A stretch of 64,000 nt of DNA, from contig CAUYUJ010000082.1 of the NCBI GenBank assembly GCA_963575745.1, positions 1 through 64,000 on the forward strand. The letters run 5' to 3'. Each line of letters opens with the position of its first letter. Position 1 is the stretch's first letter. Both the position numbers and the translations under genes were made by a program. Of the stretch, positions 859-55,714 are shown in pieces. Under the pieces are notes generated by a model. It saw only the letters and a list, made by a program, of their open reading frames with translations. It was not told the origin of the DNA and made no database searches. This DNA is from Prorocentrum cordatum (taxonomy: Eukaryota).

Positions 859-925
859 ATTGTTGTGATCTCACGGGTTTCCGATGTATCTTGTGGGCCG
901 CCGCCGTTCTGGTTGCTCAAGTCTT
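859..925 (+). repeat. Split direct repeat A1
   Basis: attgttgtgatctcacgggtttccgatgtatcttgtgggccgccgccgttctggttgctca recurs at 7470-7530 with one mismatch; gtctt continues in both after a further mismatch. Confidence 0.95.
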
Positions 926-930
926 GAGGG

Positions 931-1500
931 ATGTGGGAGAGGCTCACGAACCACGCCGTCACAGGGGTGGTCTCCTATCTCACGAGGTGCCCGCAGGTGC
1001 CATCTTGTCCCGCCTGTCCCGTGTGCTCGTTGGCGTGCGGGTCGCCAGCTCCTTGCCCAGGGTGCTCACTGCAGTGCCCAGCGATCCCGCCGTGCGCGGA
1101 GGTCGCCCCGGCGGTGTGCCCCTCGCCGCCGCCCTGCCCGACGCCGGCGTGCCCGGCGTGTGGGGCCTGCCCCGCGCCAGAGGCCGCGCCCGCGCCCGCG
1201 GGGCCGGAGGCGGCGGCGCCTTCGGCGGCGGCCGTGCTGGCGAGCGACGTCGCCATCGACCTGCGCTCCCTGGCCGCGGGCCTGGTGGGCGGCGCGGTGG
1301 GCTTCCTGCTCGTCGCCGCGTGCGTCGGCTTCTGCTGTGTCGTGCTGCGGAGGGACGCTCGCCCGCGTGTTCGGCATCCTGCTGGCTGCCTCAGTGATGG
1401 CGGCGGTGGCGACGAGTCGCTGGGTGTACGTCTTCTACGCAGGCGAGGTGGTGTGGCACCAGCACTTGAATCTGGGGCGGGTGGCATTGTCCGAGGCTGA
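931..1500 (+). CDS. ORF0: Cys/Pro-rich (CPxC repeats) predicted single-pass membrane protein, 189 aa
   Basis: ATG immediately after repeat A1; CPACP/CPGC motifs; hydrophobic LAAGLVGGAVGFLLVAACVGFCCVVL followed by basic RRDARPRVRH. Confidence 0.6.
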   Translation: MWERLTNHAVTGVVSYLTRCPQVPSCPACPVCSLACGSPAPCPGCSLQCPAIPPCAEVAPAVCPSPPPCPTPACPACGACPAPEAAPAPAGPEAAAPSAAAVLASDVAIDLRSLAAGLVGGAVGFLLVAACVGFCCVVLRRDARPRVRHPAGCLSDGGGGDESLGVRLLRRRGGVAPALESGAGGIVRG

Positions 1501-2620
1501 CCACGTCATCTACACGGCGGACGGCGATCTCTACATCGTCGCGCTGGCCAACAATGCTGATGTGCAGGCGGCGCGTTTCGGTGCCTTCAACCCGCCGCCT
1601 CCAGGGATCGCGGGCAACCAGGTGTATGGGTTCAGAGCCGAGCCGACGGATGCGGAGCTGGCCCAGCTCACCTTGGAGGCGGAGCAGATCGCGACCGCGG
1701 AGTTCCGCACCAGGGCTGCCGCCATCGGCAACCTCGGCCTGCTCACCAACTTGCGGCCGCTGGTCGCGCCTGGAGGAGGAGGAGTGGTGGCCCCCATCGC
1801 GCCCGCGGGCCCTGCTCTGGGCTTGCTGCGCGGAGCTGCCGTGCTCCCCGCTGGTGCGCCTGGAGGTGACCCCGCTGGGGTGTGGAGGGCGGCCGCTTGC
1901 GAGGGTGGATATCGGATTGGCGATGAGGTGCCTGGACACGTGCCCACTGCAGCTCGAGTCCTGGATCGGGACATTCATGTGCTGCCAGACGGCCAGGGCC
2001 TGTTCGTGGAGCTGGTGCCGCCAGCCGCCCTCGAGACTTTCTTGCGCAAGGCTGTAGATGCGGACGCCAGGATCTTGCCCATTGTTCGAGATGGGCAGGA
2101 TCGCCGCGACGTCCCGTGGCACAAGATGGTGGAGATGACCCGCCAGGAGGATTTCGGCTCGGACTGGGCGCTGCCGGGCCCGAGGACGGCGGCGTGGTGC
2201 ATGAGCTACCTGCAGCGGGAGGGCCTCGGCATAGAGGGCCATCACGAGCACTTCAGGCAGATCTGCAAGCTCGCCGCCACGGATTGGGGAGTTCAAGAAC
2301 ACTACCAGCTGTGCCAGCAGATCAAGTCGGCGACCTGCCAGGACCTCCTGGACGGGACGGGCTCCAGACCATCGAGTTTGCCCACTGGGACAAGGCCAAA
2401 GACGCCGAAAGCAAAGGCGTCGGTGGCAAGATGAGTCTGGAGGAGCAGGCCGCTTTCTCTGGGGTTTCACGTTCGACGTCGTCGGTGATGGTATCTCCAG
2501 AGTTGATCGAGCATGTCCGCGGTGACGTTGAGTAGGAAGCGGAGGTACACAAGAGTTTGCGCCTGGCCCGCGAGGAGCGGGAGTCCAGGCGCAAAAATGG
2601 CTGGGCATCAGAGCCGTGCT
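1397..2620 (+). pseudogene. Gag-like ORF of the YR element, disrupted
   Basis: MAAVATSRWVYVFYAGEVVWHQH...LPGPRTAAWC...HHEHF...WGVQEH; protein-like reading shifts frame near 2355 (QTIEFAHWDKAK...VMVSPELIEHVRGDVE), then TAG at 2533-2535 followed in frame by EAEVHKSLRLAREERE; position upstream of RT. Confidence 0.7.
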
Positions 2621-5600
2621 GGCTTCGGAGGGGGGGCCGGCACGTGTACTGCACCCCTCCACCACGGCGACCCGAGTGGGCCCTTCTTCCCTCAGGACGT
2701 CCACGACATTGGCAGGCGTCGGCCCCGGGACATCTTGCCGCTGCCCTACCCCTCGTTCAAAGAGCCGCTGGATAAGGCTTCTATCAAGGAGCTCGCCAGA
2801 GGTACGAGGCAAAGGATTGGGCGAAGGCTTGGTGTCTGCAACGATGTCTATGCATGCGTGGACGCTCTTAATTGGCTTCATGACCCGTCCCTCCGTTGCG
2901 GTCGTGACCGTTCTGCGCGATACGTTGGGCCGTCACTCGCCCAGAGCCAGTGCTTGGCCCACATCTCCGAGTCGGTGCGCAACCTTGGTCCGCCGCCGTC
3001 GACTCTTTCTCCTGCAGAAGCGCTGGTGCAGCTTCGCGTGGCCGGGGGTGCCTACAATGTCGAGCAGTCGCCCCTCGGGAGCTACGACCCCGCGCTCCTC
3101 TCCTTGCCGGACGTCAGTACCGCCCCTGTGCCGCTGGCCGACGTGTGGGGGGAGGGCGGGCAAGCCAAGGTCGAACAGTTCGTTCTGCAGAGCTTGATGG
3201 ATCCGAGCGAGGCCGAAGCCAGGCTGAGGCAGAGCTCTATACCTGTTCCTTACTCTGACCCTCTTCTACGTGATCAGCGGCGCTGGTCCCGTTTTGTTCA
3301 GTTGCTGTATGAGCGGCACCTAGTCGACTTCAGCTTTGAGGACGGCGTTCGAGCCGAGATTTTCTTTGTGAAGAAAAAGGGAGGCCGCCTTCGCATGGTG
3401 GCGGACTGCCGCCGCTCCAACGAGGTGTTCACCGAGCCCCTGGGCGTGCGGCTCGCGACTGGCGACGCCTTCGGGATGCTGGAGATGGCGGCGGACGACT
3501 CTCTCCTGACAGTGGAGGGTGCCGACCTGAAGGACGCCTTCTACCACCTTGAGCTCCCCGAGCAGCTCCGTCCGTGTTTCAGCCTGCGACCTGTGCGCGC
3601 GGGCATCCTGGGCATCAAGGAGGTCGGCGGGGTCGCTGTCGGGGCCTCCACCAAGCTCTACCCGCGCCTCAGGGTCGTGCCCATGGGTTGGTCCTGGGCA
3701 ATGTGGTGGTGTCAGTCGGTGATGGAGCGAGTGGCAGAGGCAGCAGGCTGCGGTGATGACGCGCGACTTCGAGATGTCAGGCCTGCTCCCTCTTTGGACC
3801 CAGCGTGTTACCTTGAGTACGTCGACAACTTCGTGAGCATCGGCTACGACGCGGAGGCGGTTCGGTCCGCTGTGACTCGTGTCATGACGGAGCTCAAGCT
3901 CCGAGGTTCGGTGGTGACCAGGGGGGAGCACCTCGGTGACAGCGAGGGCGAGTATGCGGTGCTGGGTTGGTCCATCACTGCGGCTGGGCGTCTCTCGGCG
4001 TCTGCTTCGAGATTGTGGAGGGTGCGGTTAGCGGTGCGTGGTCTTCTGCGGCGTGGCCGTGCCAGTGGTCGTGATCTCGAGCGCGTGCTGGGCCACATCA
4101 TCTTCGTCACTCTCGCTCGGCGTGAGGGCTTGAGCATCCTCGAGGCGAGTTTCCGCTTCGTCCAGAAGTGCTACCGCCAGCAGGTGCCGCTCTGGTCTCA
4201 GGTCAGGCAGGAGCTCATGGCCTGGGATGGCGTCGCTCCTTTGCTGTGGCGTGATCTCCGTGCTCAGTGGTCGTGTTCCGTCGGCTGCGTTGACGCCTCC
4301 CCTTGGGGGTTGGGCGCCTGCGAGGCTGACTGGGATGTCGGCGCTGTTCGGGAGGTTGGTCGTCATAGCGAGCGGTGGCGCTATGGCAGGGCTGAGCGCT
4401 TGCCTCCTCGTCGCCGGGCCCTTGCCGCTGAATGTGCCGCCGACGGGGTCGCAGCCTGTGACCTAGGGATCGTAGCGGCCCAGCTCGATCCTGGCTGTCC
4501 GGCGGAGGACAGCCAGCCCGTCGGCCCGCCTGTGGAGCGCGACCTGATCGCTTTCCCCGAGGTCTCGAAGAAATACGTGGACAAGTCGTTGTGGCGTGTC
4601 ACGGGACGTCGTAAGTGGGATCGCCTTGAGGGGATGCCTGTTCTCGAAGCTCGGGCGGTCCTGTGCCATGTTCGGCATGCTTTACGGGCCGTTCGGAACC
4701 ATGGGAAGAGGATGCTTGTCCTGGGAGATTCTCTCGCGTCTGTCTCGGCGGCCTCTCGGATGCGGGCCCACAGCCGCACCATGTTGGGGATCATGCGCCG
4801 TATTGGGGCTCTGTCTCTTGAGTCGGGGAGCTCCTTTTGTATTCGGTGGATACCGTCCGAGTATAACGTCGCGGATGGCCCCTCTAGAGGCCGAGGAGAA
4901 CCCAGTCTCCCTTCAGCTGTCATTCTAAAGGAGGGCCTCGGCAATGCCCCGAAGTACAAGGTCGGCCTGGACCCCAAAGAGCACGACCCTCCCCAGGGGC
5001 CCCAACAAGGTAGGCTACTTCGTGACCTAGGTGAGGAAGAAGGAGAGCCCCATAGGGAGCCCGATCAAGAACAGCACGGACCAGCACTACACGGTCCTCA
5101 AGGGCGGGGTCAGCACCAGCACATGCACGAGGAGGTGGGCGAGAAGGTGGTAGAGGAGGAGGAGCGCGGGCACGATGAGGGCCTCGGAGTGGCCTCGCTG
5201 GAGGACGTCTTGGGTGCTCGTGGTCCGCTTCGCTCCGAGCCGCTGACTGGCCCAAGACCTCTACGTATTATTCCATATGTTGTCGGCTCTCTTCCTCGTC
5301 GCCCTCGTCAGCACTCTTCCTGCCATGTCCGCGGGGCTGTTGCAGGGGGACGCTCGCAAGCGACCAGCCGCGGCTGCGACCTTGCCGCCGGCGGGAGCTT
5401 CCCTGGTCCGTGGGGCGCGCAAGGCTGGCTTGCAGTCGCCGGCGCTGCCAGTGCTCCAGGCCTCGCCCGCGAGCCGCCAGGGCTCGAGCGGTGGCCCCAC
5501 GCCGCAGCAGCGGGCTCGGCTGATCCAGCCGCCAGCGGGCATGCCAGTGCTCAACGCGGCATCCGTGCGCACGGCGTCGGGGCGTCAGGCTTATCTCTCG

Positions 5601-7285
5601 ATGCTGGTGGGTTTCGACAACTGGGCGAGACAGCATCGACGGGCTACGCAGGAGCCTGCTCAGATGGACCGAGCGGTCCGCGACTACATCAGCCATCTCT
5701 TCGAGCGGGGGTATCACCAGACCTACGCCAACCGTATGATAGCGGCGGTGGCATGGCGCGATCCGCGCTATGCCAGAACGGGCCAGTTCGAGCTGCCGCT
5801 GTCCAAGCAAGCCGCCAAGTGGTGGCGCAACCTGGCCCCAGCTCGCAGCCGAATGGCCCTTCCGTACGAGGTCGTCGCCATGGTGGTCAACTGCGTGCTC
5901 CATCGGCGCGGCACCCCGGAGGCGCTCGCGATCTGGCTCCTCTTCGAGATCTACGGCCGCCCAGGCGGGGTCCACGGGCTTCGCCTGCAGGGCGCGGTGC
6001 CGCCGGCGCCTTCCGCGTCAGGGGCTCACCGCTACACCTCGGTGACGCTCCATGCGCAGGAGGTCGGCGACGTCTCGAAGACGGGGGAATTCGACGCGGC
6101 GATCCGCCTCGACCTCGAGCGCCAGGCAGGCCTGGCCGCGGGACTGCTGGCGATGGCCGCCGCGCGGCGCCGCGCGGGAGCGCCGCCCTGGGCGCCGCTT
6201 TTTGCAGTCGACCAGCGCAGTGTGGCCAGCGCATGGCGGGGGGCTGTCGCCGCCCTCGGCCTCCGCAAGCTGGGTGCCTGCCGCGTCTACCAGCTCCGCC
6301 ACTCGGGCCCAAGCCACGACTGCGCAGCAGGGCTGTGCGACCTGGAGCAGATCAGGCGGCGTGGGCGCTGGAAGAGCTGGAGCTCAGTCCGCAGGTGCGA
6401 AAAAGGAGGCCGCCTGACCGAGCAGCTGCACAAATTAGGAGGGCCGCAGCGAGAGCACGCGGAGGCCTGCGCGCGCTTGCTGAGCCGTGCGTCGCACGGC
6501 CTGCCCTCAGCGTTAGTGCCAGTTTGCCCGACCCGCCAGTGATCTTAGAGTTGTTCTCTGGCTCAGCAGGATTTTCGAAGGCGGTCGCTCAGCTAGGCAT
6601 GCCAGTTTTGATGTGGGACACTACTCTAGGCGAGAGATACGAACTCGCCCGACCGTGTAGTCGCTCGCTGCTTTTGTCATGGATCCGTGCTGGTCGAATC
6701 AGGGGTTGGCATGCGGGTGTACCTTGCAACGCGCTGACCAGGTGCCGCGATCATGGGGTCGGGGCGCCGCCAGTACGATCCGATCTCCACCTCTTTGGCC
6801 TCCCGAGCCTCCCTCCTCATTTGCAAGCGATTGTCGATGTATCCAACATCCTCAACAGGTTTGTTGCCAATCTCGCTGGTGTTTCACTTTCGTTACGTGT
6901 GCCCTGGAGTATCGAGAACCCTAAGACTTCTCGGCTGTGGCTTTTCCCACGCTACAAAGCCCTAATGCGGCGCCGGGCTGTCTCTTTCCATGTCACCTCT
7001 ATGTGCCAGTGGGGTGCGGCTTGGAAAAAAGATACTGGCCTTCTCCTCGGGGACCTTGACCCGGGGCCGTTCCGTGAGTCGCGGTGCATCGGATCCAGGC
7101 GTGGCATTTGCTCTCGTACGGGTCGTGCTCACGAGCAGCTGCAAGGTTTTTTGCCCTCAGGAGGTTTCCAGACCAAGAGAGGGGCAGAGTATCCTCGAAC
7201 ATTTTGCGTCGCCCTCGCTCGTCTCTTTCGTAATGCCGAGGTCAGAGCTTCCGCAGAGGTCATACAGCGATCGTGTGGTTTGTGA
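2513..7285 (+). CDS. Pol ORF (1590 aa): reverse transcriptase (~3350-3980), RNase H (~4280-4895), linker overlapping the YR gene, C5 cytosine methyltransferase (~6530-7285)
   Basis: RT: FFVKKKGGRLRMVADCR, ADLKDAFY, VPMGWSWA, YVDN. RNase H: VDASPWG, LEARA, LGDS, WIPSEYNVADGPSR. DNMT: ELFSGSAG, AGVPC, IENP, MCQWG..WKK.T, AEYP. Confidence 0.9.
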   Translation: MSAVTLSRKRRYTRVCAWPARSGSPGAKMAGHQSRAGFGGGAGTCTAPLHHGDPSGPFFPQDVHDIGRRRPRDILPLPYPSFKEPLDKASIKELARGTRQRIGRRLGVCNDVYACVDALNWLHDPSLRCGRDRSARYVGPSLAQSQCLAHISESVRNLGPPPSTLSPAEALVQLRVAGGAYNVEQSPLGSYDPALLSLPDVSTAPVPLADVWGEGGQAKVEQFVLQSLMDPSEAEARLRQSSIPVPYSDPLLRDQRRWSRFVQLLYERHLVDFSFEDGVRAEIFFVKKKGGRLRMVADCRRSNEVFTEPLGVRLATGDAFGMLEMAADDSLLTVEGADLKDAFYHLELPEQLRPCFSLRPVRAGILGIKEVGGVAVGASTKLYPRLRVVPMGWSWAMWWCQSVMERVAEAAGCGDDARLRDVRPAPSLDPACYLEYVDNFVSIGYDAEAVRSAVTRVMTELKLRGSVVTRGEHLGDSEGEYAVLGWSITAAGRLSASASRLWRVRLAVRGLLRRGRASGRDLERVLGHIIFVTLARREGLSILEASFRFVQKCYRQQVPLWSQVRQELMAWDGVAPLLWRDLRAQWSCSVGCVDASPWGLGACEADWDVGAVREVGRHSERWRYGRAERLPPRRRALAAECAADGVAACDLGIVAAQLDPGCPAEDSQPVGPPVERDLIAFPEVSKKYVDKSLWRVTGRRKWDRLEGMPVLEARAVLCHVRHALRAVRNHGKRMLVLGDSLASVSAASRMRAHSRTMLGIMRRIGALSLESGSSFCIRWIPSEYNVADGPSRGRGEPSLPSAVILKEGLGNAPKYKVGLDPKEHDPPQGPQQGRLLRDLGEEEGEPHREPDQEQHGPALHGPQGRGQHQHMHEEVGEKVVEEEERGHDEGLGVASLEDVLGARGPLRSEPLTGPRPLRIIPYVVGSLPRRPRQHSSCHVRGAVAGGRSQATSRGCDLAAGGSFPGPWGAQGWLAVAGAASAPGLAREPPGLERWPHAAAAGSADPAASGHASAQRGIRAHGVGASGLSLDAGGFRQLGETASTGYAGACSDGPSGPRLHQPSLRAGVSPDLRQPYDSGGGMARSALCQNGPVRAAAVQASRQVVAQPGPSSQPNGPSVRGRRHGGQLRAPSARHPGGARDLAPLRDLRPPRRGPRASPAGRGAAGAFRVRGSPLHLGDAPCAGGRRRLEDGGIRRGDPPRPRAPGRPGRGTAGDGRRAAPRGSAALGAAFCSRPAQCGQRMAGGCRRPRPPQAGCLPRLPAPPLGPKPRLRSRAVRPGADQAAWALEELELSPQVRKRRPPDRAAAQIRRAAARARGGLRALAEPCVARPALSVSASLPDPPVILELFSGSAGFSKAVAQLGMPVLMWDTTLGERYELARPCSRSLLLSWIRAGRIRGWHAGVPCNALTRCRDHGVGAPPVRSDLHLFGLPSLPPHLQAIVDVSNILNRFVANLAGVSLSLRVPWSIENPKTSRLWLFPRYKALMRRRAVSFHVTSMCQWGAAWKKDTGLLLGDLDPGPFRESRCIGSRRGICSRTGRAHEQLQGFLPSGGFQTKRGAEYPRTFCVALARLFRNAEVRASAEVIQRSCGL
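5277..6542 (+). CDS. Tyrosine recombinase (catalytic Tyr apparently replaced by Cys)
   Basis: YGRPG (Arg 5958-5960), SKTG, YQLRHSG, RRGRW, SSVRRCEK with TGC at 6396-6398 where Tyr is expected. Confidence 0.88.
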   Translation: MLSALFLVALVSTLPAMSAGLLQGDARKRPAAAATLPPAGASLVRGARKAGLQSPALPVLQASPASRQGSSGGPTPQQRARLIQPPAGMPVLNAASVRTASGRQAYLSMLVGFDNWARQHRRATQEPAQMDRAVRDYISHLFERGYHQTYANRMIAAVAWRDPRYARTGQFELPLSKQAAKWWRNLAPARSRMALPYEVVAMVVNCVLHRRGTPEALAIWLLFEIYGRPGGVHGLRLQGAVPPAPSASGAHRYTSVTLHAQEVGDVSKTGEFDAAIRLDLERQAGLAAGLLAMAAARRRAGAPPWAPLFAVDQRSVASAWRGAVAALGLRKLGACRVYQLRHSGPSHDCAAGLCDLEQIRRRGRWKSWSSVRRCEKGGRLTEQLHKLGGPQREHAEACARLLSRASHGLPSALVPVCPTRQ

Positions 7286-7336
7286 GTCTCTTTTCTTCGG
7301 CGGTGCCAGCTTGCTCTGTAAACTCGGGAGCATGTT

Positions 7337-7471
7337 TGGTGTTATGTTCTGGGGTTGAGCTCTCACCCCAGGACTTGAGCTTGCCTGTGCCTCGCTCGGC
7401 GGTCTCGACGGCTGGATTCCGCCCGTGCTCAGTCTCTTGCAGTTGCTGGCAGAAACAAGAGCCCAAAGGAT
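7337..7471 (+). repeat. Split direct repeat B1
   Basis: tggtgttatgttctggggttgagc...agaaacaaga(gc)ccaaaggat repeated at 7585-7717. Confidence 0.95.
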
Positions 7472-7536
7472 TGTCGTGATCTCACGGGTTTCCGATGTAT
7501 CTTGTGGGCCGCCGCCGTTCTGGTTGCTCACGTCTT
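7470..7536 (+). repeat. Split direct repeat A2, abutting B1
   Basis: Copy of 859-925. Confidence 0.95.
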
Positions 7537-7584
7537 CCGCCTCCTCCTCTCCTCCACCGCTTTCTTGTCACTCAGGTGTTATGG

Positions 7585-7717
7585 TGGTGTTATGTTCTGG
7601 GGTTGAGCTCTCACCCCAGGACTTGAGCTTGCCTGTGCCTCGCTCGGCGGTCTCGACGGCTGGATTCCGCCCGTGCTCAGTCTCTTGCAGTTGCTGGCAG
7701 AAACAAGACCAAAGGAT
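7585..7717 (+). repeat. Split direct repeat B2 (right end of element)
   Basis: Copy of 7337-7471 with a 2-bp indel. Confidence 0.95.
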
Positions 7718-10990
<3,273 letters not shown>

Positions 10991-11019
10991 GCAGAAGGCC
11001 AGGGGCTGCTTGGATTCCT

Positions 11020-11400
11020 TGAGGCTTCCTTCGAGGCTCTTTAGGCCGTCTTGGATGTCTCTTGGTGGTCTCGGGGGCCCCTTGGGGTGTCTTGGGTGCC
11101 GTTGAGCGGTGCCTCTTGAGGCCTCTTGGGGCCGTTCAGGCACCTCTTTGGGGCCTCTTCGGAGCCTCTTGGAGCTGTCTTGGGGGCCCTGGAGTCCCTC
11201 TTGAGGTCATCCTGTAGGACATTGATCAAAGAAGGGGGCATCTTGGGCCATCTTGGATGCTCCAGTCGATCGCGGGGCGCCCCGTCCAGGTCCAGGAGGA
11301 GGGGGTAGGAGGAGGGGCCAACCCCTCTCCAACTGGGAAGAGGGGAAGATGGAACAGAACGTGCCCTAAACTACCTACGCCCAGAGGGCTGGTGGGATTA
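11020..11400 (+). repeat. Dispersed degenerate repeat family built on gggccgtcttgg/ggcctcttgg; other copies at ~20200-20450 and ~35530-36200
   Basis: Same short motifs reiterated at three loci. Confidence 0.7.
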
Positions 11401-30085: not shown

Positions 30086-30110
30086 CGCAGGGGTCGCAAG
30101 GTTCGTTGCT
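29853..30110. repeat. ~135-bp imperfect tandem duplication at the start of ORF2
   Basis: cccaaagcgggtg, gggcttccctagtggaag and gctgcaagt.acc.gcaccgcaggggtcgca each occur twice. Confidence 0.8.
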
Positions 30111-30249
30111 GCGTCTGTGACATTGTGATGCTGTGTGGCGCTGGGCCGATAGTTACGTATGGTCGCTTGAGGCCGACCAGGGGCCTGTTGCTCTGGTCTT
30201 TTTCGACGGGTCCGATGAGCCAGAGCGCCCTCATCGGGGTCGTTCGTAT

Positions 30250-33234: not shown

Positions 33235-34618
33235 CGTACGCGCCTGAGCGCGTTGCTGCCGCTGGCGCCGATGCCAGGATGGTTCGCCTTCACGAGGCGT
33301 CCTGGCGGGGCGCCTGCCGCGGCCGCGGCGCCGAGCGATGGCCCGCGGCGCGCGAGCCCGAGCACGAGGGGGCGACCGACGAGGGCGACGACGGCCCAGC
33401 CCCCCTCAGCCCGTGGCTTTCTCCTCCTCCTCCTCCTCCTCCTCGTCCTCCTCCTCCTCCTCCTCTTAATCTTCGGAGTAAGCGGGCGCACCGGACCTCT
33501 CATTGAAGCTTACCTTGTTTCGCGCAGAGCGGTCTCCCGTAAGTGTTTCGATGCGAGGCCAGAAAGCTGCTATCACTGACAACACTACCTCTCTGGGAGG
33601 GGGCGGCGAGGAGCGCGGACGAGGCGAGGAAGAAACAAGGTGAGGAGGAGGTAAGAAGGGGGATAATGATAACGACAAACCGAAGCATAGAGCATGGAAA
33701 CGGACATTGAGCATGCATATAACGATGCAACACACAGGCGGGCCGAGGAGGATACGAATGAAGATGCGAACATGATGATCAAAGTCAGACTGCATCTGGT
33801 GGAGGATGACGAGGGATGGAGGAGGAGATGGGAAGGGGAGAAGGATGATGAGACGAGTTGCCACATCCACGCCTGGGGCTGCATCTCGACAGCACACCCT
33901 GACCGCGAGTCGATCCTCGACGAGACGTCGGGGACATTGCCGTCTCCCAGTGGCAAGCCCACCCCCCTTTGTGCAAGAGCGTGGTCGGGACAGTGCATAT
34001 CTGCGTGGTGTACTTCGCCACCCGAGAAAAGATCACGGTCCTCAACCTGCGACAGGGTCTTGGTGGCGCAACCGTGGCGGCGTGCGACATGTTGTTGCTC
34101 AAAGAATTCTGGGTGAGCACGCCCTGAATGGACTAGAGCCTCTGCACGGTTGGCCAGGTGCGCATCCACCGCTGCGACAACGGTGTGCCGTAACCGCACA
34201 TGATGAAGGACAGCACGATCATGGCCATGCATCCTTTGTACTCCGCAGCGATTACTCCCACGCTTTCGATCACGCACAGACCGAACACCGAGCCTGCGAC
34301 CAGGCCGACTTTCGAGAGCGACATCGACCACAGAGCGTGCAGCAGAGGCCCGCGCACGCCATCGCCATCGATCGCGCCTTCGCCTTCCTCGGCGTCGCCA
34401 CGCCAGCCGAGACCCGCGCGCAAACCACTAGGGCGCTGTATTGGTGAATCATCTCCTTCCTCTCCTCACGTTGGCCTGCCTCTCATCGTCCCAATCTTCC
34501 CCTTCACACCCCAAATCGCCACGCCGTCTTTCCTGTTCCAGCACCTCGACGTACGCCACAGTGCCCGCTGGCACGCTGAGGCGTGGTAGATTGTCAAGGT
34601 CCGACCAGTGTGATATGT

Positions 34619-44274: not shown

Positions 44275-44320
<46 letters not shown>

Positions 44321-44356: not shown

Positions 44357-44437
<81 letters not shown>

Positions 44438-46410: not shown

Positions 46411-47549
46411 GCCGCCGGCGAGGGCGCGCTCTCTTCCTCGACGCCTGCGCCCCAGCGAGGCCATCGGCGCCATCATCCTCGCCATTTTCTTTCCTGGGAC
46501 AACGAGTGCTGCCGGGGCCGCCGAGCAGCGGCCCGTGCCAGAACCATGCGCGGTCTGGATGACTAGGGGCACCTCCTGGACTCCTCGGTCTGTGGCCAGG
46601 CGTGCCGGAAACGGCGATGCACTGCAGAGCGCTGACCCTTGCGGCGGGCAGCCGACTCCAGCTGCGCCAGCGCCGCGGCCATCGGCGCCAGCAGCTACTC
46701 CGAGTTCTTCGTCGTGCGGCTCGTGGCAACCCGTTGGCCGCGACCATTGGTCAACTTTGCTGGGGGCGTCGTCGTCGTCCTCGTCCTTGCCGCGCGTTGC
46801 CGAAGTGCGTGGAATTGCAGATCTCATGGGCCTTGGGCAAGCCTTTGTAGCGCTGGCGGTTCTGGTGACTGTGTCGCCGGGCCGTCGGGCAGCAGAGGGG
46901 GGGGGGCCGCCGCCGGCCACGCCAGCTTCGGGGGCGCCAACAACGCCGGCAGCTCCAGCTGCCTCAGAGGCACCACCACCACCACAGCATCAGTATACCA
47001 CAAGTGTGGACACAAGTGGGCGGTGCGACTGGGTCTGCGACCTTGGCGCGCGAGTCGCCGCGCCCCCGACCCAGTCTGCCGACGTGCAGTTGCCGAGCTG
47101 GGCTTGCGTGCCTTCAGTCTCCGTCCTCGGTATCAGCGCGCCATGTGGATCGAGCTCCATGTGGCCGCCGCAGTCCGCGCTGGCTGCTGCGTCACCGCCA
47201 CTGCCCGAGTCTCCCCAGGACTTGGCTCTTCAATCAGAACAGCCCCGTCGACGTGCGCCAAACGTCCGGGAGAGTGGCCATGTGGTTCGCTGGCCGCGAC
47301 GCCTGGATGTCCGGCGGCGGCCGATCCGAGCACGACGTACACGCCGCCCTCGACTATGCGCGACGACGGCACTTCGACGATCTCCACAACGTGCAGCAGG
47401 CGCTCAAGCTCGCGCGGCAGCAAGATGAGCAACGACGCCAGGCCGCACAGAGCTGGACGGAGACACCTGTTGATCCTTCTCCTGTGCCAGCCGCTGCGCC
47501 GACTGCTCCGCCTCCCTCAGTGGCGACGTTCAGTGGCGACGATAGGGAG

Positions 47550-47680
47550 TGCCCCATCTGCTTCGAGGCCTTCCAGCGCGGCGACTGGGTGGTGCGCCTG
47601 CAGTGCCGCCACATCTTGCGCCAATCATGCCATCTGCAGCCTCTGCAGAGCACAGACGCCCGCTTGGTGCGCTGTCTGGC
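47550..47680 (+). pseudogene. RING-finger remnant
   Basis: CPICFEAFQRGDWVVRLQCRHILRQSC...RC. Confidence 0.7.
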
Positions 47681-48657: not shown

Positions 48658-49050
48658 TTGAAGGTCCAGCTCCTCGGCCCCAACGCGCGGTCACCCTCGC
48701 GGGGTGCGACCTCTACGCGTGCGCGGACGTCAGTCTCGCGACCTGTGGTCGTGAACTGGTGTCGATGGGCATAGCGCCCCTGGCACCGCCGGGCACCTAC
48801 CTGCGCGTCGCCCCCCGCTCAGGTTTCGCCCTCAAGGGAATCGACGTCGCCGGCGGCGTGGTGGGCCCCGATTTCCGCGGCAAGAGCAAGGCGATCATGT
48901 CCAACGCAAGTCAGCGGACGTACTTGGTCGAGCAGGTCTATCGCATCGCCCGGCTCATCCTTGAGCGCGTCGTCAGCGATGCCGAGATCGTGGTCGCCCC
49001 CGACGCTCCCATCGGCGTCGCGTGGATCTGGAGGCTTCGGACACGCTGGC
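48658..49050 (+). pseudogene. dut: dUTPase remnant, frameshifted
   Basis: LKVQLL..NARSPSRG; PPGTYLRVAPRSGFALKGIDVAGGVVGPDFRG; RIARLIL; RGSGGFG. Confidence 0.88.
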
Positions 49051-50374: not shown

Positions 50375-50970
50375 CATCATGGCGTCGTGCGGTGGGGGGG
50401 CGCGGACCAGCAGACTCGCTGTCCGCCGCCGCCCCAGGGCGGGCGCCAACTTCGATTTATTGATTGATTGCGACCTCGACAACGAGAGCCGGCAGACAGC
50501 CGTGGGGCGATTCCTAAGAGAAAAACGGCCCCTAGTGGCCATCGTGGCCCCCGCTTGCCAGCCCTTCGGTCGTTGGGCTGCGTTTCGCTGCAAAGGTGGC
50601 CGCAGCACCTGGCAGCGCCGCTACGAGGGCGTGGTCCCGCATTGCCGATTCGCGGCTTTGAGCGCAGTTGCAGATCGAGTTGGGCGGCTACTTCATCACC
50701 GAGCAGCCCGCGCCATCGTGGCTGTGCGCCGAGTCGCCCTGGCTAGTGGTGCTTGCAGTGCCGAGTGTGGACATGATCATCTTCGACCGACGTCAGCTTG
50801 GGCTTCGGGATTGCTTCGGAGGCATCTTGAAGAAGACCGCCCGGCTGGTCTCTAAGGCCCTGGAGATCTCTGAGCGCTTCTCCGAATCCGCTGCCCAGGT
50901 AAGCGCGCGCGTCCGCGTCGAGGGCCACGACCGCTTCGACGCCCAGATTTGGCCGTGCAAGATGGCCGGG
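50375..50970 (+). pseudogene. C5 methyltransferase remnant
   Basis: IMASCGG (motif I-like), FDLLIDCDL, VAPACQPF (PC-like), YFITEQP (motif VI-like), KKT, AQIWP; same motif order as the 6530-7285 domain. Confidence 0.65.
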
Positions 50971-51499
50971 CGACGCGTCCAGGGCACAATGGACTTGCGT
51001 CGCCGTTCGCGGCAGCGTCCGATCAGCAGCCTTCCCAGCCGTGGCTGCCGGCGCCGCTGAGGGAGAGTTCAGACGCGAAGTTGCAGTCAAACGCGCGCGC
51101 TACACATGCCAGGCGTGCAAGCGCAACGTACGGACGGACTCGCTCATGCACTCCAGGGATCCAGCAGCGTGCCGCTACCATCACAGCGCGCCGATCCATT
51201 GGGAGTGTCCCAGCTTCCAAGAGGGAAAGGAGCGCGTTCTCCCCGCGCACTTTCACGAGTTTGGCAAGTGCAGGTTCGCGGATCCCTACGTCCGGCCGCG
51301 CCCGAGCGCCGGCCAGCACCCGCGAGCGCCGGCGCGACCTGGAGGACCGCCTTGCCCCAGCGATCCACAGTAACCTCGTCGAGCAGGGTCGTGAGCTGCC
51401 GACGCAGCTGCAGGCGATCCAACGCCCGCAGACTGGACCTCGCGTCGTCGTCGCAACCTCCTTGCGAGCACCTCGCAGTGACTTGTATGAAACACGCCT

Positions 51500-52540
51500 T
51501 CGGGAGCTTCGCAAGCTGCGCTTCCGCTTGTGGCACGTCGCCAGGGAAGAGATGTGCACTGCGAACAGCCAACGTACCACAGGACATCCTCAACTTCATT
51601 CCCACGGTGGTCAACGACTGCAGGGGGCGTCGCGAGTGGCTACCGCCAGCGCGCTAGACCATCCTGCACTCCACCTGCCGACGCGATTCAACCAGCACGT
51701 CGAGTGCGACATCCTGTTCTACAAGGGTCTCATAATTATCCACCTGATCTGTTGCACCTCGCGGTGGCATAGTGGCCAGGAGGTCACGTCCGAGCACGAC
51801 TCGACGCTGCTTGCCGCCATCGACCGCTCATGAATCCAGCCGTTCGGCTCGATGGAGACTCTGATCGTGGGCGGCGATGGTGGGATGACCTCGACGTCCT
51901 TCGGGGAGGAGATGGAGAGGAGTGGAGTGCAGGTTGACATGCCTGCTCCGCGCCATCACGCTCGTTTCGTCGAGCGGCGTGTGGCCATGTTGAAACAATC
52001 TCTTCGCGCCACGGAAGAGCAGCTGGTGCGCGAAGGCATCGCAGTGAACCTCGACTAATTGCTAGCACGTGCCGTTATTGCTGGCAAGAGCCTCGCGCAC
52101 GTGGGCGGCGTCGCGCCATGCAACATCGTCTTCGGACGGCAGCCGTCCATGCTGCCACCGCTCGGAGCAGACGAACAGGGCGAGGCATCCGGCGACTGTG
52201 TCGCTGGTGCCGAGCCTCCTGCTGGTGGGGAAGTGCATCCCAGCCGACTGCAGTGGCGCATCCGAGAGAGCCCTGCAACGAATAACGGAGGCCACGCCAA
52301 GAGCGCGCGTCGACCGCGCCCTCGGGGCCTGAATTGCCTAGTCCGGGGAGGGCCGCTTCAACGTGGGCGACCAGGTGGAGATCCACTGGCTGCCAAGCAC
52401 CAAGGATGCATCAGGCTGGGCGGGCCCTGCGATAGTTATGTCTATAGGCTCGGCTCGAGGCGAGGTGGTGGTTAAGTGCCGCCGAGCCGAGATGGTCTGC
52501 AGACTGCAAGACGTCCGGGCCTTCGTCGGTGCCGTCTTCG
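51500..52540 (+). pseudogene. Integrase remnant
   Basis: LWH...VNDC; PTRFNQHVECDILF; ICCTSRW; QPFGSMETLIVG; FVERRVAML; PCNIVFGRQP. Confidence 0.7.
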
Positions 52541-53579
52541 ACGAGATGGGCGCTGGTATGGCGCGAGCAGGCTTGGCTTGGGACCGCGTTGAGGATTACC
52601 TGGAGCACATGGCGCCAGGCTCTGGGGCCAGGACCTTCGGCCATGGGGGGGCGCCGCGGGTGAGCGGGCACGACGGCGCCCATGCGTCCTCGAAGCCCTG
52701 CGCCATTTGCCCCGCAGGTGCTTTCCACTACCTGACGTTCGCGCTGTGCGAGTCCTGCGCGGGCAGGAATATGTGGGTAACTGGCTGGGATGCGCCCGCA
52801 GCCTGGCCATCTGGCGGTTCCCATCGGGGCCCTGCCGACGTCTGGCATATTCACTTCAACGGCTTCGCGTTCGACGCCCGCCGGCCCCCAGGCGAGCAGG
52901 GGAGCTCGCGCCATCTAGTTTATCTTGGGCGATGAGGCGCCAGCCGTGACAGACGCTGGACAGGACCTGGACAGAACTCTCGATGACAGTGTCATCGACG
53001 TTCCCGAGGACACCGCCAGCGCCACCGAAGGTGGATCGCCATCAGCCCTGTCGGCCAGGCCGGAGGAAACCGGCAGCGACGTCTCCAGCCACGTCCAGCA
53101 GGTGATGCCGGCAATTGGGCGTGAAGTCGGTTCGGCAGAAGATTTGGCCCAGGAGCTGGAGGAGCTGGGGGGCGCCGACAGCCGCATCATATATCCGCTG
53201 CCGTCGAGCACGCCGCGGCCGACCTAGGTCGAGGGCCGCGCGAGTGGCCCTGGCACCTCGAGTCGGAGCACCGTCGTCAGAGCATCCACGCGCAATGCCA
53301 CTACTATTGGCGCAGGGCCTCCGTGGGCGACTACGCCGCGCCAGAGGGGGGGGGGCGATTTAGGTGGACGCGTGGCGTTGCATATTGGTCCCGGGGTGTG
53401 CGAAGCATTCCCGAGCTTCCACGAGGCTGCGTCCCGCGACTGCGTCGTCGGCGCTCCTCAGACAGCCGTGCTTGACATGTCTGCCGCCGTCGAGGCCGCG
53501 GTCATCGAGCGCGACGCCGACCTTCTGTCCCACGAGGAGGTGTCGAGGCTGTCGAAGGAGGTCGTAGCGGCCGCCCTCG

Positions 53580-55050
53580 ACGAGCGCACCATTTGGGTCA
53601 TGTGCAAGCTTGCGAGAGGCGGCCGTCCGAAGGCGCTCGACATGTAATGGGCTCCAGACATGTCTCCGAGTGGAAGCGCCGGAAAGGGTCAGACGGCGAG
53701 ACTGTCAGGGTCACCCAGCGCCGCGTGGCGCTGAGCGGCTTCCGCGACGTGGGCGCCGGAGCCCTGGAGACGTTCGCTGGTACAGCGAAGCAGGCGTCTC
53801 AGCGCCTACTATCCTCAGAGGCGGCGCGTGGCCCCGACAGGGTGTGCGTCGCCATTGACGCCGAGAAGGCGTTCCCGCGAGGCATGACCTATACGGAAAT
53901 GCAAGGGCAAGGCGAAGCACCTCGAGGGGTGAACTTCGCCCTGCCACCTGGCAGTGCAGCATCTTCAGGCAGGTGCTCGGCTTCGAGAGCTTCGACGAGC
54001 GGACCGAGTGCCTGCGCTGCATCAAGCCGGGTACGCACTGCAAGGATGTGCCCCGAGCCTTATCCATGAAGCTCGCCTGGGTCACGCGCTCGCCCGAGTG
54101 CAGCGCCGAATCTACCAGGTGGGGCAAGCGCGTGACGTCCGGCAGATGTGCCGCCAGCGTCTTGGAGCTAGCGTTTGCCTTGTCCAGCCGTTTTGACGAT
54201 CTGAAGATCGCTGGGCACGAGGAGCACGTCGACCGGCGGATCATCCACATCGATGGCGTCTTTGGCAATATGAAGGGTGGCTGCGACGATTTCACCAATT
54301 GCGGAGTGCGCCAGCACCGCAGTGCCGATGGCACCGTGATCTTCGACCAGGACGAGTACATCGACGCTCTGGTACTGATCAGACACGTCGACCTGGTCAA
54401 CGCCAGGGCTGACGAGCCAGCCAGAGGTCAGCCCGCCGCCCTCTGTGTCTCCCTCCTGGGAGCAGCGGCTCACGCTCTGGTCGCCCAGCACCATTTTGCA
54501 GCGTGCATCGTCGCGCCGAGAATATGCTGCTCACCCAGCGCGTGATGCAGCTCAACTCCGTTGTTCTGGCCATGCAGCAGGTCATGGCACGCATTGCGTT
54601 TCCATCACTGGAGTGTGCTGGGCGACTCGTCGCGCGCAGCGACGGGTCCTGCAGGGGGGGGGAAGAGACGGGATGCGGCACGAGAGGGGCCGTGTGCATT
54701 CGTCTCGGGAAGTGCCGCCGCGCCGGCACACGAGTGCGCCGCCTGCTGGGCGTTGTGAGCCGATCGCGCAAGCTTGTGTGCATGGCCTCATTCTGCTCTG
54801 AGCTGCTCGCAGCGCGCGGCGTGGCAGACGGTCTGCAGGCGCGCCTCCTCGCGGTGTGCGAGATGGTGCACGGCCCCGCCCCTGCCCGGGGGGAGGGGGT
54901 TGCGCGATCCCTGCGTGCCTCGTCATAGACGGCGCGCTTGTATTCGGCGCCCTGCCCATGGGCCCGGTCGGGCCGCCGTCCGAGGACAGCGCGGCTAGCC
55001 GCCCGTGGTGGTTGGCCGACCAGCTGCGCACCCAGCGGATCGACGACTTG
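53580..55050 (+). pseudogene. Copia-type RT and RNase H remnant
   Basis: SRHVSEWK, RVALSGFRD, AIDAEKAF, CIKPGTHCKDVPRA, DDLKIAG, FTNCG, DQDEYID; SDGS, SRK.V..SF.SELLA, VID. Confidence 0.75.
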
Positions 55051-55714
55051 CACTAATGTGAACTCGGGACACGCGGGGCGACCCCATGACCGAGGGCAGC
55101 ATGGGCCGAGAGCTCATTTTCAGCGTGATGGGCGGCAAGAGCAGCTATGACCACGCCGCGGTCAAGTTCAGCGACGAGAAGCTGAGGAAGGCCGCCCCGG
55201 GCTCGCAGCATAGCTCATCCACGCAGAAGTCAGGAGATGACTTTCTTGACTGTGTCGCGAGGTCACGCGGAGTCGGAAAGCGGGAATAGATTTAAGCGCC
55301 GCGTTGGCCTATGGGGGGTGGGATGCGCGCTTTATTTCCAAGCGCCGCATCGGCCCGCTGTGGGTGGGATGCGCCGACGCCCGCGGAGATCAACGGACGA
55401 AATCGACGAGTTGAGCGCTCAGTTGGGCAGGCTTGCGCGAACCGTGTCTGGGCAGCTCGCAGATCTTAGCTGCGCTCCTCTAAATCGTCTCGCACTTGAC
55501 TGCGCAGGAGAATTGGCTGGCATGCTTTGGCTGATCTTAGAGGCTCCACTGGGATTGGACTCCAGCCCTGCCACGTGTGCCGTGCAAGTTTTTTGCGGTT
55601 GGCGTCGTGGGGGCCAATGTGCCTTGGGCTGCTGCGGGGGCTGCTGCGGAGTCCGGTGACCTTGAGGCCCGCCGAAACCAGCTCAACGTGTTCCCCCGCG
55701 AGGCCTTTGTTTAA

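What the first reader, a model, noticed from the sequence alone, without database searches (positions are those of the whole stretch)
859..55290. Three unrelated retrotransposon classes each carry a C5 methyltransferase domain, in three states of decay
Seen: intact motifs (ELFSG/PC/ENP) in the YR element at 6530-7285, a motif-dead homolog in the open LINE ORF2 at 23500-23960, and a frameshifted copy between dUTPase and integrase in the Copia-order element at 50375-50970. Known: DNMT capture by dinoflagellate retrotransposons has been reported, so the phenomenon itself is not new. Inference: one DNMT family has been exchanged among, or repeatedly captured by, YR, LINE and LTR-type elements, possibly for self-methylation of cDNA or the insertion site.
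Basis: partly seen in the sequence, partly recalled or inferred. Interest (0 to 1): 0.75.

Follow-up and report, generated by a model that had tools for sequence, protein, structure and literature searches.

The report
Hidden cytosine-methylase domain in retrotransposons
A jumping gene in this probably dinoflagellate DNA ends in a well-preserved enzyme domain shaped like a DNA cytosine methylase that standard methylase profiles miss; a neighbouring LINE element keeps only a short relic of it, and the third claimed copy could not be proven.

Summary
Partly confirmed.

**Segment 1 (6524-7282)** is real and intact. It is the C-terminal domain of the pol ORF of a young split-direct-repeat tyrosine-recombinase (YR) retrotransposon (859-7717).
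- It keeps the FSGxG, PC and ENP motifs.
- It belongs to a very large family: 3238 representative clusters at E<=1e-3.
- Pfam PF00145 and NCBIfam do not detect it.
- It folds confidently (pLDDT 96). Its best structural matches are only C5 DNA methyltransferases (Z 11-12).
- 16 of 50 family members match the phage 'DNA methyltransferase' family phrog_757 (best E 3.6e-10).

**Segment 2 (LINE ORF2)** has a 48-residue stretch (23588-23731) that matches the family profile. It scores E 1e-4 among the window's 1089 ORFs, and 0 of 5000 shuffles reach its score. The catalytic motifs and the flanks are not recognisable, and no fold could be obtained.

**Segment 3 (50391-50796, frameshifted)** matches only weakly, though in the right order (E 0.1-0.2 at window scale). 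The integrase and RT of its 'Copia' host element were read by eye only.

DNMT capture by dinoflagellate DIRS and LINE elements is published (de Mendoza 2018). Other agents of this scan noted the same hidden family elsewhere in this genome. The new points are that the family is uncatalogued and phage-like, and that a LINE carries a relic of it.

The parts
859..925 (+). Terminal repeat A, first copy, of the YR retrotransposon
   Evidence: 67 nt, 97% identical to 7470-7536
869..2434 (+). First ORF (gag-like position), 521 codons
   Evidence: Open frame. 1883-2353 matches four Polarella-type family proteins by tblastn, E 3e-13 to 7e-13. No Pfam family.
2507..7285 (+). pol ORF of 1592 codons: RT-RNase H region, a linker with non-coding composition, and the C-terminal methyltransferase-like domain
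   Evidence: Open frame. Relatives of about 1400 aa align to 2717-4996 and 6305-7357 in this frame at 38-42% identity.
2717..4996 (+). RT / RNase H part of pol
   Evidence: tblastn with P0009, P0010, P0016 and P0029 gives E 1e-141 to 1e-150. RVT_1 is weak in this copy (E 0.033). It is found in 9 of 37 long relatives.
5247..6542 (+). Tyrosine-recombinase ORF in another frame, overlapping the pol linker. The expected catalytic Tyr reads Cys (RRCEKGGR).
   Evidence: Translation. Its YR part matches 9 of 187 family proteins, E 9e-29 to 8e-4. The third-codon-position GC signal follows this frame from about 4900 to 6500. The Tyr-to-Cys reading is by eye, against P0008.
6524..7282 (+). Segment 1: intact C5-methyltransferase-like domain (FSGxG, PC, ENP, CQxG..WKK.T, Cys/His cluster, AEYP)
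7309..7471 (+). Terminal repeat B, first copy
   Evidence: Aligns with 7559-7717
7470..7536 (+). Terminal repeat A, second copy
7559..7717 (+). Terminal repeat B, second copy. The element layout is A - coding - B - A - B.
30250..33405 (-). LINE upstream ORF (1051 codons, His/Gln/Glu-rich) with no methyltransferase
   Evidence: no Pfam family, and the only family-profile row overlapping it is a 57-codon sub-ORF at 32057-32674(-), E 7.8
22997..30283 (-). LINE ORF2, open for 2428 codons
   Evidence: Contigs of 4 of 4 public runs cover it at about 99% identity.
28205..28648 (-). RNase H domain of LINE ORF2
   Evidence: PF00075, E 3.5e-11
25247..26053 (-). Reverse transcriptase of LINE ORF2
   Evidence: PF00078, E 1.2e-6 and 8.7e-5
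24257..24424 (-). C2H2 zinc fingers of LINE ORF2
   Evidence: PF13894, E 4.1e-5
23588..23731 (-). Segment 2: 48-residue relic matching family-profile positions 86-133 (LRS..G..L..p....V...N + helix)
47547..47654 (+). RING finger in the third element
   Evidence: PF13639, E 8.9e-5
48693..48989 (+). dUTPase in the third element
   Evidence: PF00692, E 4.3e-19
50391..50573 (+). Segment 3, first half (frame of ORF 49788-50855), up to APACQPFGR
   Evidence: hhalign E 0.068. hmmsearch 3.7-5.8 bits. Atlas lead to PF00145 at 0.88.
50657..50665 (+). Position of the +1 frame change inside segment 3
   Evidence: Three-frame reading
50692..50796 (+). Segment 3, second half (frame of ORF 50662-51060): FITEQPAPSW ... 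DRRQLG
   Evidence: hhalign E 0.033. hmmsearch about 0 bits.

Best explanation
**The YR element and segment 1.**
- The element at 859-7717 is a young tyrosine-recombinase retrotransposon with split direct repeats.
- Its pol ORF ends in a roughly 250-residue domain of an uncatalogued but very large family of C5-cytosine-methyltransferase-like proteins.
- The domain keeps the SAM-loop motif (FxGxG), the catalytic Pro-Cys, the ENV-type glutamate and a basic motif VIII.
- In place of a large target-recognition domain it has a short Cys/His-rich segment.

**Most likely function (inferred, not shown).** It is an active SAM-dependent DNA cytosine-5 methyltransferase made as part of pol. It would methylate the element's own new cDNA or integrated copy, as shown for SymbioDIRS-Dnmt3 domains in yeast.

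**The LINE (segment 2).** The LINE at 22997-33405 carries, behind the zinc fingers of ORF2, a relic of the same family. Only the central 48 residues are still recognisable and the catalytic motifs are gone. If it does anything, it is not methyl transfer.

**The third element (segment 3).** The segment between dUTPase and the presumed integrase may be a decayed, frameshifted member of the wider group, but this is unproven.
For: **Size and make-up of the family**
- 3238 representative clusters match at E<=1e-3, 1190 at <=1e-10 and 83 at <=1e-30. Most sit at the C-terminus of proteins of about 1400 aa.
- Named members come from Prorocentrum, Polarella and Fugacium.
- Motifs and 10 invariant residues are conserved across 50 sequences of 30-60% identity.

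**Similarity to known methyltransferases**
- A profile search of PDB sequences gave 12 hits, of which 11 are DNMT2 or M.HhaI. They align motif I through motif IV, but only at E 0.12-0.56.
- The AF2 model has pLDDT 96.1 and pTM 0.92.
- Foldseek gave 103 hits at E<=1e-3, and every row shown is a C5 DNA methyltransferase; the best is E 2.3e-6.
- VIA-align on Foldseek's list gave Z 12.0 for DNMT1 (219 aligned, rmsd 4.1) and Z 11.8 for M.HhaI residues 10-327. All 50 rows shown are cytosine or DNA-modification methyltransferases.
- The Foldseek-independent search of 48161 chains put such enzymes in ranks 1-17 (Z 11.2-9.2, 171-214 aligned). Generic Rossmann dehydrogenases followed at Z<=9.0 (154-172 aligned).
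- PHROGs: 16 of 50 members match phrog_757 'DNA methyltransferase'. The best is E 3.6e-10 over profile positions 15-180 of 247. Segment 1 itself scores E 1.3e-3.

**Segment 2**
-, as set out under the observation check.
- The stretch belongs to the LINE family itself. Contigs from 4 of 4 runs cover the region at about 99% identity, and some bridge from it into the RT region.

**Activity of related enzymes**
Against: **Against calling segment 1 a methyltransferase**
- PF00145 finds none of the three segments at E<=10. It finds only 2 of 50 family members, best E 0.041.
- NCBIfam finds nothing.
- A single-sequence search of PDB finds no methyltransferase.
- Foldseek TM-scores are only 0.34-0.49.
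- The Z margin over unrelated Rossmann folds is about 2.
- No ordinary target-recognition domain is present.
- No activity, methylation or expression data exist for this family.
- CpG observed/expected is 0.95-1.06 in all three elements, so there is no footprint of methylation-driven decay.
- This copy's recombinase appears to have lost its catalytic tyrosine, so the copy itself may be immobile.

**Against segment 2**
- The flanks of the 48-residue match are no more profile-like than random placements.

**Against segment 3**
- It is not significant at window scale, E 0.11-0.2.
Confidence: 0.7

Rival explanations
1. One methyltransferase family has moved among YR, LINE and Copia-type elements, and all three segments are its descendants in three states of decay.
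For: - Segment 2 shares the family-specific stretch between motifs IV and VI with segment 1's family.
- Both halves of segment 3 align to the profile in the right order. Only 2-4 of 5000 shuffles reach its score.
- For its first half, the nearest Atlas cluster that carries any Pfam family carries PF00145. This is a lead only: score 0.88, and 13% of cluster members carry the family.
- Unchecked notes of this scan report methyltransferase-shaped domains in copia-type elements of the same genome.
Against: - Segment 3 reaches only E 0.11-0.2 at window scale.
- There is no pairwise similarity among the segments.
- Segment 3 lacks the LRS..GLP insert that defines segment 1's family, judged by eye.
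- The third element's integrase, RT and LTRs were not confirmed.
- No tree was made.
Confidence: 0.3
2. Only the YR element carries a methyltransferase-like domain. The LINE match is a short patch picked up by recombination or template switching from a YR element, not a decayed whole domain. Segment 3 is a chance look-alike.
For: - The significant match covers only 48 residues.
- The flanks are no better than random.
- Segment 3 is not significant at window scale.
- The 187 family proteins hit nothing else in the window by tblastn except the YR element.
Against: - The LINE stretch sits in an open frame of a multi-copy, roughly 99%-conserved family.
- A motif-I-like beta strand, a Cys and an 'IILD' strand lie at about the expected spacings. 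This was read by eye and is not statistically supported.
- The Atlas lead for segment 3 points to PF00145.
Confidence: 0.25
3. The segment 1 family has the methyltransferase fold but does not methylate DNA cytosine. It might act on RNA, as DNMT2 does, or serve as a non-catalytic DNA- or SAM-binding module of pol.
For: - DNMT2 is the best profile hit among PDB sequences (E 0.12). Dnmt2 structures score Z 9.3-9.9.
- The target-recognition domain is replaced by a short Cys/His segment.
- The standard DNMT profile fails.
Against: - The catalytic Cys, the ENP glutamate and the FxGxG loop are invariant or nearly so across the family. That argues for catalysis.
- The closest library families are phage DNA methyltransferases.
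- DNA enzymes (M.HhaI, DNMT1, DNMT3) score as high as or higher than Dnmt2.
Confidence: 0.15

Closest known systems
SymbioDIRS-Dnmt3 (Symbiodiniaceae; de Mendoza et al. 2018, PMC5890265; sections on structure, dynamics, yeast assay and search methods read)
   Same: - Dinoflagellate YR retrotransposon with A-coding-B-A-B repeats.
- A cytosine-methyltransferase-type domain inside the pol ORF.
- A separate recombinase ORF.
   Different: - Those DNMTs were found with PF00145 and group with Dnmt3.
- The domain here is invisible to PF00145 and has its best library matches in phage families.
- Its relation to Dnmt3 was not tested by a tree.
SymbioLINE-Dnmt (same paper)
   Same: A dinoflagellate LINE associated with a methyltransferase-type sequence.
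   Different: - There the DNMT is intact and lies in ORF1, upstream of the RT ORF.
- Here ORF1 has none.
- The relic lies at the C-terminal end of ORF2, behind the zinc fingers, without catalytic motifs.
DIRS1-like / DAM-DIRS elements (Piednoel et al. 2011, PMC3266345, passages read; bioRxiv 10.64898/2026.05.21.726589, passages read)
   Same: - The pol ORF is laid out as RT - RNase H - methyltransferase.
- The recombinase ORF overlaps pol.
   Different: - Their MT is a Dam-type adenine methyltransferase, and their ends are inverted repeats with internal complementary regions.
- Here the MT has the C5 fold with a Pro-Cys motif, and the ends are split direct repeats.
phrog_757 and related phage 'DNA methyltransferase' families (PHROGs v4)
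   Same: - Similar length (profile of 247 positions).
- Significant profile matches for 16 of 50 family members, best E 3.6e-10.
   Different: - No tblastn match of the best member (P0101) in 50,697 phage records.
- The family here is fused to retrotransposon pol or recombinase proteins.
M.HhaI, DNMT1, DNMT3A/B catalytic domains (solved structures)
   Same: - Fold match from motif I to motif X: Z 11-12, about 190-219 residues aligned.
- Motifs I, IV and VI are present.
   Different: - 10-18% identity.
- No ordinary target-recognition domain.
- An extra LRS..GLP loop between motifs IV and VI.

Membership tests
C5 cytosine DNA methyltransferases (PF00145 / Dnmt fold): segment 1 | Motif I FxGxG (SAM loop) | tested here: met
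   ELFSGSAG. G13 is kept in >=90% of 50 sequences. It aligns to the M.HhaI and DNMT2 motif I.
C5 cytosine DNA methyltransferases (PF00145 / Dnmt fold): segment 1 | Motif IV Pro-Cys with the catalytic cysteine | tested here: met
   GVPCNAL. C68 is invariant and P67 is kept in >=90%. It aligns to GfPCQaFS of M.HhaI.
C5 cytosine DNA methyltransferases (PF00145 / Dnmt fold): segment 1 | Motif VI ENV glutamate | tested here: met
   SIENP. E131 is invariant; N132 and P133 are kept in >=90%.
C5 cytosine DNA methyltransferases (PF00145 / Dnmt fold): segment 1 | Motif VIII QxRxR and a target-recognition domain between motifs VIII and IX | tested here: inconclusive
   The variant is CQxG..W(R)K.T, with K169 invariant. 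About 45 residues with C188, C196 and H203 stand where the recognition domain would be. The residue-level structural equivalence was not available.
C5 cytosine DNA methyltransferases (PF00145 / Dnmt fold): segment 1 | Match to the curated family profile | tested here: not met
   PF00145 gives no hit at E<=10. Only 2 of 50 members hit it, best E 0.041. NCBIfam finds nothing.
C5 cytosine DNA methyltransferases (PF00145 / Dnmt fold): segment 1 | Catalytic-domain fold | tested here: met
   pLDDT 96.1. Z 12.0-10.5 for the 50 rows shown, all such enzymes. They also fill ranks 1-17 of the wide search.
C5 cytosine DNA methyltransferases (PF00145 / Dnmt fold): segment 1 | SAM-dependent methylation of cytosine C5 | not testable with these tools
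   Needs an enzyme or yeast assay.
Segment 1's family (alignment A1): segment 2 in the LINE | Significant match to the family profile | tested here: met
   E 1e-4 among 1089 ORFs. 18.9 bits for the segment alone; 0 of 5000 shuffles reach it. Only profile positions 86-133 are matched.
Segment 1's family (alignment A1): segment 2 in the LINE | Catalytic motifs I, IV and VI, and the whole-domain extent | tested here: not met
   FTANHD stands for FSGxG, FC for PC, and LDS for ENP (by eye). The flank blocks are no better than random.
Segment 1's family (alignment A1): segment 2 in the LINE | Methyltransferase fold | tested here: inconclusive
   The single-sequence model has pLDDT 35.5. No relatives were found for an alignment.
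Segment 1's family (alignment A1): segment 3 | Significant match to the family profile | tested here: inconclusive
   E 0.11-0.2 at window scale. 2-4 of 5000 shuffles reach its score. hhalign E 0.068 and 0.033, in the right order.
SymbioDIRS-Dnmt3 | A-coding-B-A-B terminal repeats and a recombinase ORF | tested here: met
   Repeats. The recombinase ORF matches relatives. Pfam gives only Phage_int_SAM_1 at E 0.11.
SymbioDIRS-Dnmt3 | A DNMT domain detectable by PF00145 that groups with Dnmt3 | tested here: not met
   PF00145 fails. The Dnmt3 grouping was not tested, as there were no reference sequences for a tree.
SymbioLINE-Dnmt | DNMT encoded in ORF1, upstream of the RT ORF | tested here: not met
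   ORF1 (30250-33405) has no Pfam family. The only family-profile row overlapping it is E 7.8 for sub-ORF 32057-32674(-), far from significance.
Ty1/Copia LTR retrotransposons: third element | LTRs, and integrase placed before RT | tested here: inconclusive
   No direct repeats of 40 nt or more flank it. Pfam at E<=0.1 finds neither rve nor RVT_2 in 23 ORFs. PDB searches find nothing. RT-like and integrase-like motifs were read by eye in ORFs 53476-54069 and 50874-51833.
DIRS1-like (DAM-DIRS) | Inverted terminal repeats and a Dam-type adenine methyltransferase | tested here: not met
   The repeats are split direct repeats. The fold and motifs are of the C5 type.

The most novel reading that the evidence does not exclude
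An uncatalogued, phage-like C5-methyltransferase family is the standard C-terminal pol module of a very large group of YR retrotransposons of dinoflagellates and other marine protists. It would be the cytosine counterpart of the Dam domain of DIRS1 elements.

If so, many dinoflagellate elements counted as 'without DNMT' by PF00145 would in fact carry one. The family would also have spread into LINE and LTR-type elements, where it survives as non-catalytic remnants.
Probability: 0.35. Interest if true: 0.7.

Novelty: new variant of a known kind. Interest (0 to 1): 0.5.

Why it matters
Censuses of transposon-borne DNMTs in dinoflagellates rest on PF00145 (PMC5890265, methods section read). A family of thousands of clusters that this profile cannot see would change several things:
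- the count of methyltransferase-carrying elements;
- the inferred origin of these domains, which would be phage-like rather than host Dnmt3;
- the picture of how retrotransposons interact with the unusually heavy CG methylation of these genomes.

A catalytically dead relic kept in an open, multi-copy LINE would also be a case of a captured enzyme domain being repurposed or slowly lost.

The basic phenomenon is already published. This scan had also already noted the hidden family on other pieces of the same genome.

Tried and rejected
**Library and sequence searches that found nothing useful**
- Pfam on the whole ORFs and on the cut segments found no methyltransferase.
- NCBIfam found nothing.
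- A single-sequence PDB search of segment 1 gave only chance hits to leucine-rich-repeat ligases, E >= 0.037.
- BLASTP and phmmer among the three segments found nothing.

**Searches for relatives of segments 2 and 3**
- The word-indexed protein search found none for either segment.
- Viral contigs gave none.
- The metagenome scan for segment 2 gave three loci, L001-L003. They are not relatives: their best A1-profile score is E 0.19.
- The Atlas gave no usable hit for segment 2.
- Earlier-findings look-ups by sequence gave nothing.

**Structure and statistics**
- The single-sequence AF2 model of segment 2 was unusable, pLDDT 35.5.
- The test of the flanks of the segment 2 match was negative.
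- Segment 3 could not be folded, because a joined frame is not a sequence of the window.

**Other checks**
- tblastn of the best phrog_757-like member (P0101) against phages found no match.
- There is no CpG depletion in any element.
- No LTRs flank the third element.
- PDB searches of its presumed integrase and RT ORFs gave nothing.
- The supplements of PMC5890265 hold no gene identifiers that would tell whether Fugacium member P0045 was among their elements.
- No RNA holder was listed among the sequencing runs.
- No whole genome is held for this window.
- A whole-window repeat search was swamped by simple repeats.
- Complex prediction was not used; no binding claim is made.

Full report
**What the window is**

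The window is GC-rich (about 45-70% per 2-kb window) and carries several retroelements. No whole genome is held for it. Named relatives of the main protein family come from the dinoflagellates Prorocentrum cordatum, Polarella glacialis and Fugacium kawagutii, so a dinoflagellate source is likely.

**Segment 1: the element**

A retrotransposon spans 859-7717. It has split direct repeats:
- A: 859-925 and 7470-7536, 97% identical.
- B: 7309-7471 and 7559-7717.
- The layout is A - coding - B - A - B.

It holds three ORFs:
- a first ORF at 869-2434;
- a 1592-codon pol ORF at 2507-7285;
- a recombinase ORF at 5247-6542, in another frame.

Relatives of about 1400 aa align to 2717-4996 (RT/RNase H, E to 1e-150) and to 6305-7357, both in the pol frame. 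They do not align to the stretch between.

In that stretch the third-codon-position GC signal follows the recombinase frame, not the pol frame. From the position-specific composition, about 7 stop codons would be expected in the pol frame there (my estimate). There are none.

Of the 187 family proteins on hand, 30 are 1200 aa or longer and carry the C-terminal domain. Of those 30, only 2 show the recombinase in frame (P0037, P0168). Shorter proteins show a recombinase-methyltransferase fusion in one frame.

I read this as an overlap of pol and the recombinase ORF, as in DIRS1-type elements (PMC3266345, passages read). That is an inference.

The recombinase of this copy reads RRCEKGGR where relative P0008 reads LRLYEHGGR. 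By eye, the catalytic tyrosine seems lost.

**Segment 1: the domain**

Residues encoded at 6524-7282 carry ELFSGSAG, GVPCNAL, SIENP, CQWGAAWKKDT, a Cys/His-rich stretch and AEYP.

Standard libraries and simple searches do not recognise it:
- Pfam gives nothing, even at E<=10.
- NCBIfam gives nothing.
- A single-sequence search of PDB finds no methyltransferase.

The family behind it is very large:
- The exhaustive search of 1.84 billion representatives found 3238 proteins at E<=1e-3, 1190 at <=1e-10 and 83 at <=1e-30.
- An alignment of 50 of them (30-60% identical to the window's domain) has 10 invariant columns, among them the Pro-Cys cysteine and the ENP glutamate.

Several independent lines tie the family to C5 methyltransferases:
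- Its profile finds 12 PDB sequences, of which 11 are DNMT2 or M.HhaI. They align from motif I to motif IV, but only at E 0.12-0.56.
- PF00145 matches 2 of the 50 members, best E 0.041. It matches none of 37 long relatives at E<=1e-3, of which 9 show RVT_1.
- The AF2 model is confident, with pLDDT 96.1 and pTM 0.92.
- Foldseek gives 103 PDB hits at E<=1e-3. Every row shown is a C5 DNA methyltransferase, at TM-scores of 0.34-0.49.
- VIA-align gives Z 12.0 to DNMT1 (219 aligned, rmsd 4.1) and Z 11.8 to M.HhaI over residues 10-327.
- In the Foldseek-independent search of 48161 chains, ranks 1-17 are cytosine or DNA-modification methyltransferases (Z 11.2-9.2). Short-chain dehydrogenases follow at Z<=9.0 with shorter alignments.
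- PHROGs gives sequence-level support. 16 of 50 members match phrog_757 'DNA methyltransferase' (best E 3.6e-10, profile positions 15-180 of 247). 9 match phrog_2882, 7 phrog_363 and 4 phrog_5999. Segment 1 itself scores E 1.3e-3.
- tblastn of the best member against phage genomes found nothing.

So segment 1 is a real, intact member of a C5-methyltransferase-like family that the curated DNMT profile does not see.

**Segment 2**

ORF 22997-30283(-) is open for 2428 codons. It holds the following:
- RNase H (E 3.5e-11);
- an endonuclease-like region, read by eye only;
- RT (E 1.2e-6);
- C2H2 fingers.

The upstream ORF 30250-33405(-) has no methyltransferase.

Evidence for a family match:
- Searching the family profile against all 1089 six-frame ORFs of the window, this ORF is the only significant hit besides segment 1. 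It scores E 1e-4 for the ORF and 1.3e-3 for the domain, at residues 2185-2232 = nt 23588-23731 against profile positions 86-133.
- A 152-sequence profile gives E 3e-4 and 2e-3.
- hhalign gives E 6e-4 at 28.5% probability.
- The 241-residue segment alone scores 18.9 bits; 0 of 5000 shuffles reach that, and their maximum is 9.1.
- The matched part is the loop and long helix between motifs IV and VI, which is particular to this family.

Evidence against a whole domain:
- The flanking blocks, placed at the expected offsets, score no better than random placements. 74% of 14871 null placements score as high or higher.
- The motif positions read FTANHD, FC and LDS.
- The single-sequence structure model is unusable, pLDDT 35.5.
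- No relatives were found for an alignment.

The stretch is part of the LINE family. Contigs from 4 of 4 public runs of 4 studies cover the ORF at about 99% identity (for example 16 differences in 3238 nt). Some bridge from 23636 into the RT region.

**Segment 3**

Upstream lie a RING finger (E 8.9e-5) and a dUTPase (E 4.3e-19). A +1 frame change lies between 50657 and 50665.

- The first half (to APACQPFGR) aligns to the profile at E 0.068 by hhalign. The second half (FITEQPAPSW ... DRRQLG) aligns at E 0.033. They are in the right order.
- Read through with X at the break, the segment scores 6.6-7.6 bits. That is E 0.11-0.2 at window scale. 2 to 4 of 5000 shuffles reach it.
- In the Atlas, the three best clusters (0.94-0.96) are unnamed. 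The nearest cluster with any Pfam family carries PF00145 in 13% of its members, at score 0.88, which is a lead only.
- No relatives were found.
- Pfam, PDB and repeat searches did not confirm integrase, RT or LTRs. The 'Copia order' rests on motifs read by eye.

**Mechanism**

Shown:
- the fold of segment 1's domain;
- conservation of its motifs;
- the size of the family;
- its fusion to pol or to the recombinase.

Inferred:
- the domain is a SAM-dependent cytosine-5 DNA methyltransferase;
- it is delivered with pol;
- it acts on the element's new DNA.

The inference rests on analogy. Two SymbioDIRS-Dnmt3 domains methylated CG de novo in yeast (PMC5890265, section read). There is no CpG depletion in any of the three elements, with observed/expected 0.95-1.06. 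That paper likewise reported no significant depletion for SymbioDIRS-Dnmt3 (section read).

**What is known**

- DNMTs in Symbiodinium LINEs (in ORF1) and DIRS-like elements (in pol) are published. That work found them with PF00145. It states that the abundant Copia elements lack any DNMT domain, and that DIRS and LINE elements without DNMT co-exist with the DNMT-bearing ones.
- A 2026 preprint lists the known transposon-borne DNMTs as SymbioDIRS-DNMT3, SymbioLINE-DNMT, Gypsy-DNMT3 and its own EpiLTRs. It treats the DIRS MT as Dam-type (passages).
- Four literature searches found no description of a PF00145-invisible family in dinoflagellate YR elements, nor of a methyltransferase relic in LINE ORF2.
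- Unchecked notes of this scan report the same kind of hidden domain on other pieces of this genome, in a DIRS-type element, in copia-type elements and behind a transposase.

**Verdict**

This is a new variant of a known kind, of moderate interest.

Noticed in passing
window 4900-6542: The pol frame stays open for about 530 codons across the recombinase ORF, although the coding composition follows the recombinase frame. Of 30 long relatives, 28 likewise have RT and the methyltransferase-like domain in one ORF without an in-frame recombinase. Other relatives fuse recombinase and methyltransferase in one frame. This looks like a conserved overlap of ORFs, with two alternative layouts.
   Followed up: partly
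window 6440-6470 (recombinase ORF, 'RRCEKGGR'): Cys stands where relatives have the Tyr expected to be the recombinase nucleophile. This otherwise intact, young copy (repeats 97-100% identical) may be unable to integrate.
   Followed up: partly
window 22997-33405 (-): The LINE's sense strand is A+C-rich and T-poor (A 0.28, C 0.35, G 0.24, T 0.14), with CpG observed/expected near 1. Of 29 listed differences between this copy and contigs of public runs inside ORF2, 15 fall on third codon positions.
   Followed up: partly
window 23231-23251 and 23283-23371: Contigs of all four runs laid leave the window's sequence at about 23231-23251 with the same alternative letters. All four also show a form that skips 87 nt (29 codons) at 23284-23370. 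The LINE's 3' end therefore probably lies inside what the window reads as the tail of ORF2.
   Followed up: no
window 7600-11100, 18100-19300, 43900-44500, 56100-57400: There are long arrays of short purine-rich or 9-15-nt and 11-nt repeats with extreme GC skew. They create long spurious open frames on both strands.
   Followed up: no
window 49156-49701: The ORF between dUTPase and segment 3 reads ARLVVIGRHGQQW ... HRACRKPL ... IVLTG. By eye this faintly recalls the ENP..W / CQxG..K.T half of the domain, so it might be a second decayed module. The profile gives only E 5.8.
   Followed up: partly
window 16345-19449 and 20681-22159: These are large open frames (1034 and 492 codons) with no Pfam family. 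The first runs into a simple-repeat array and may not be a gene.
   Followed up: partly
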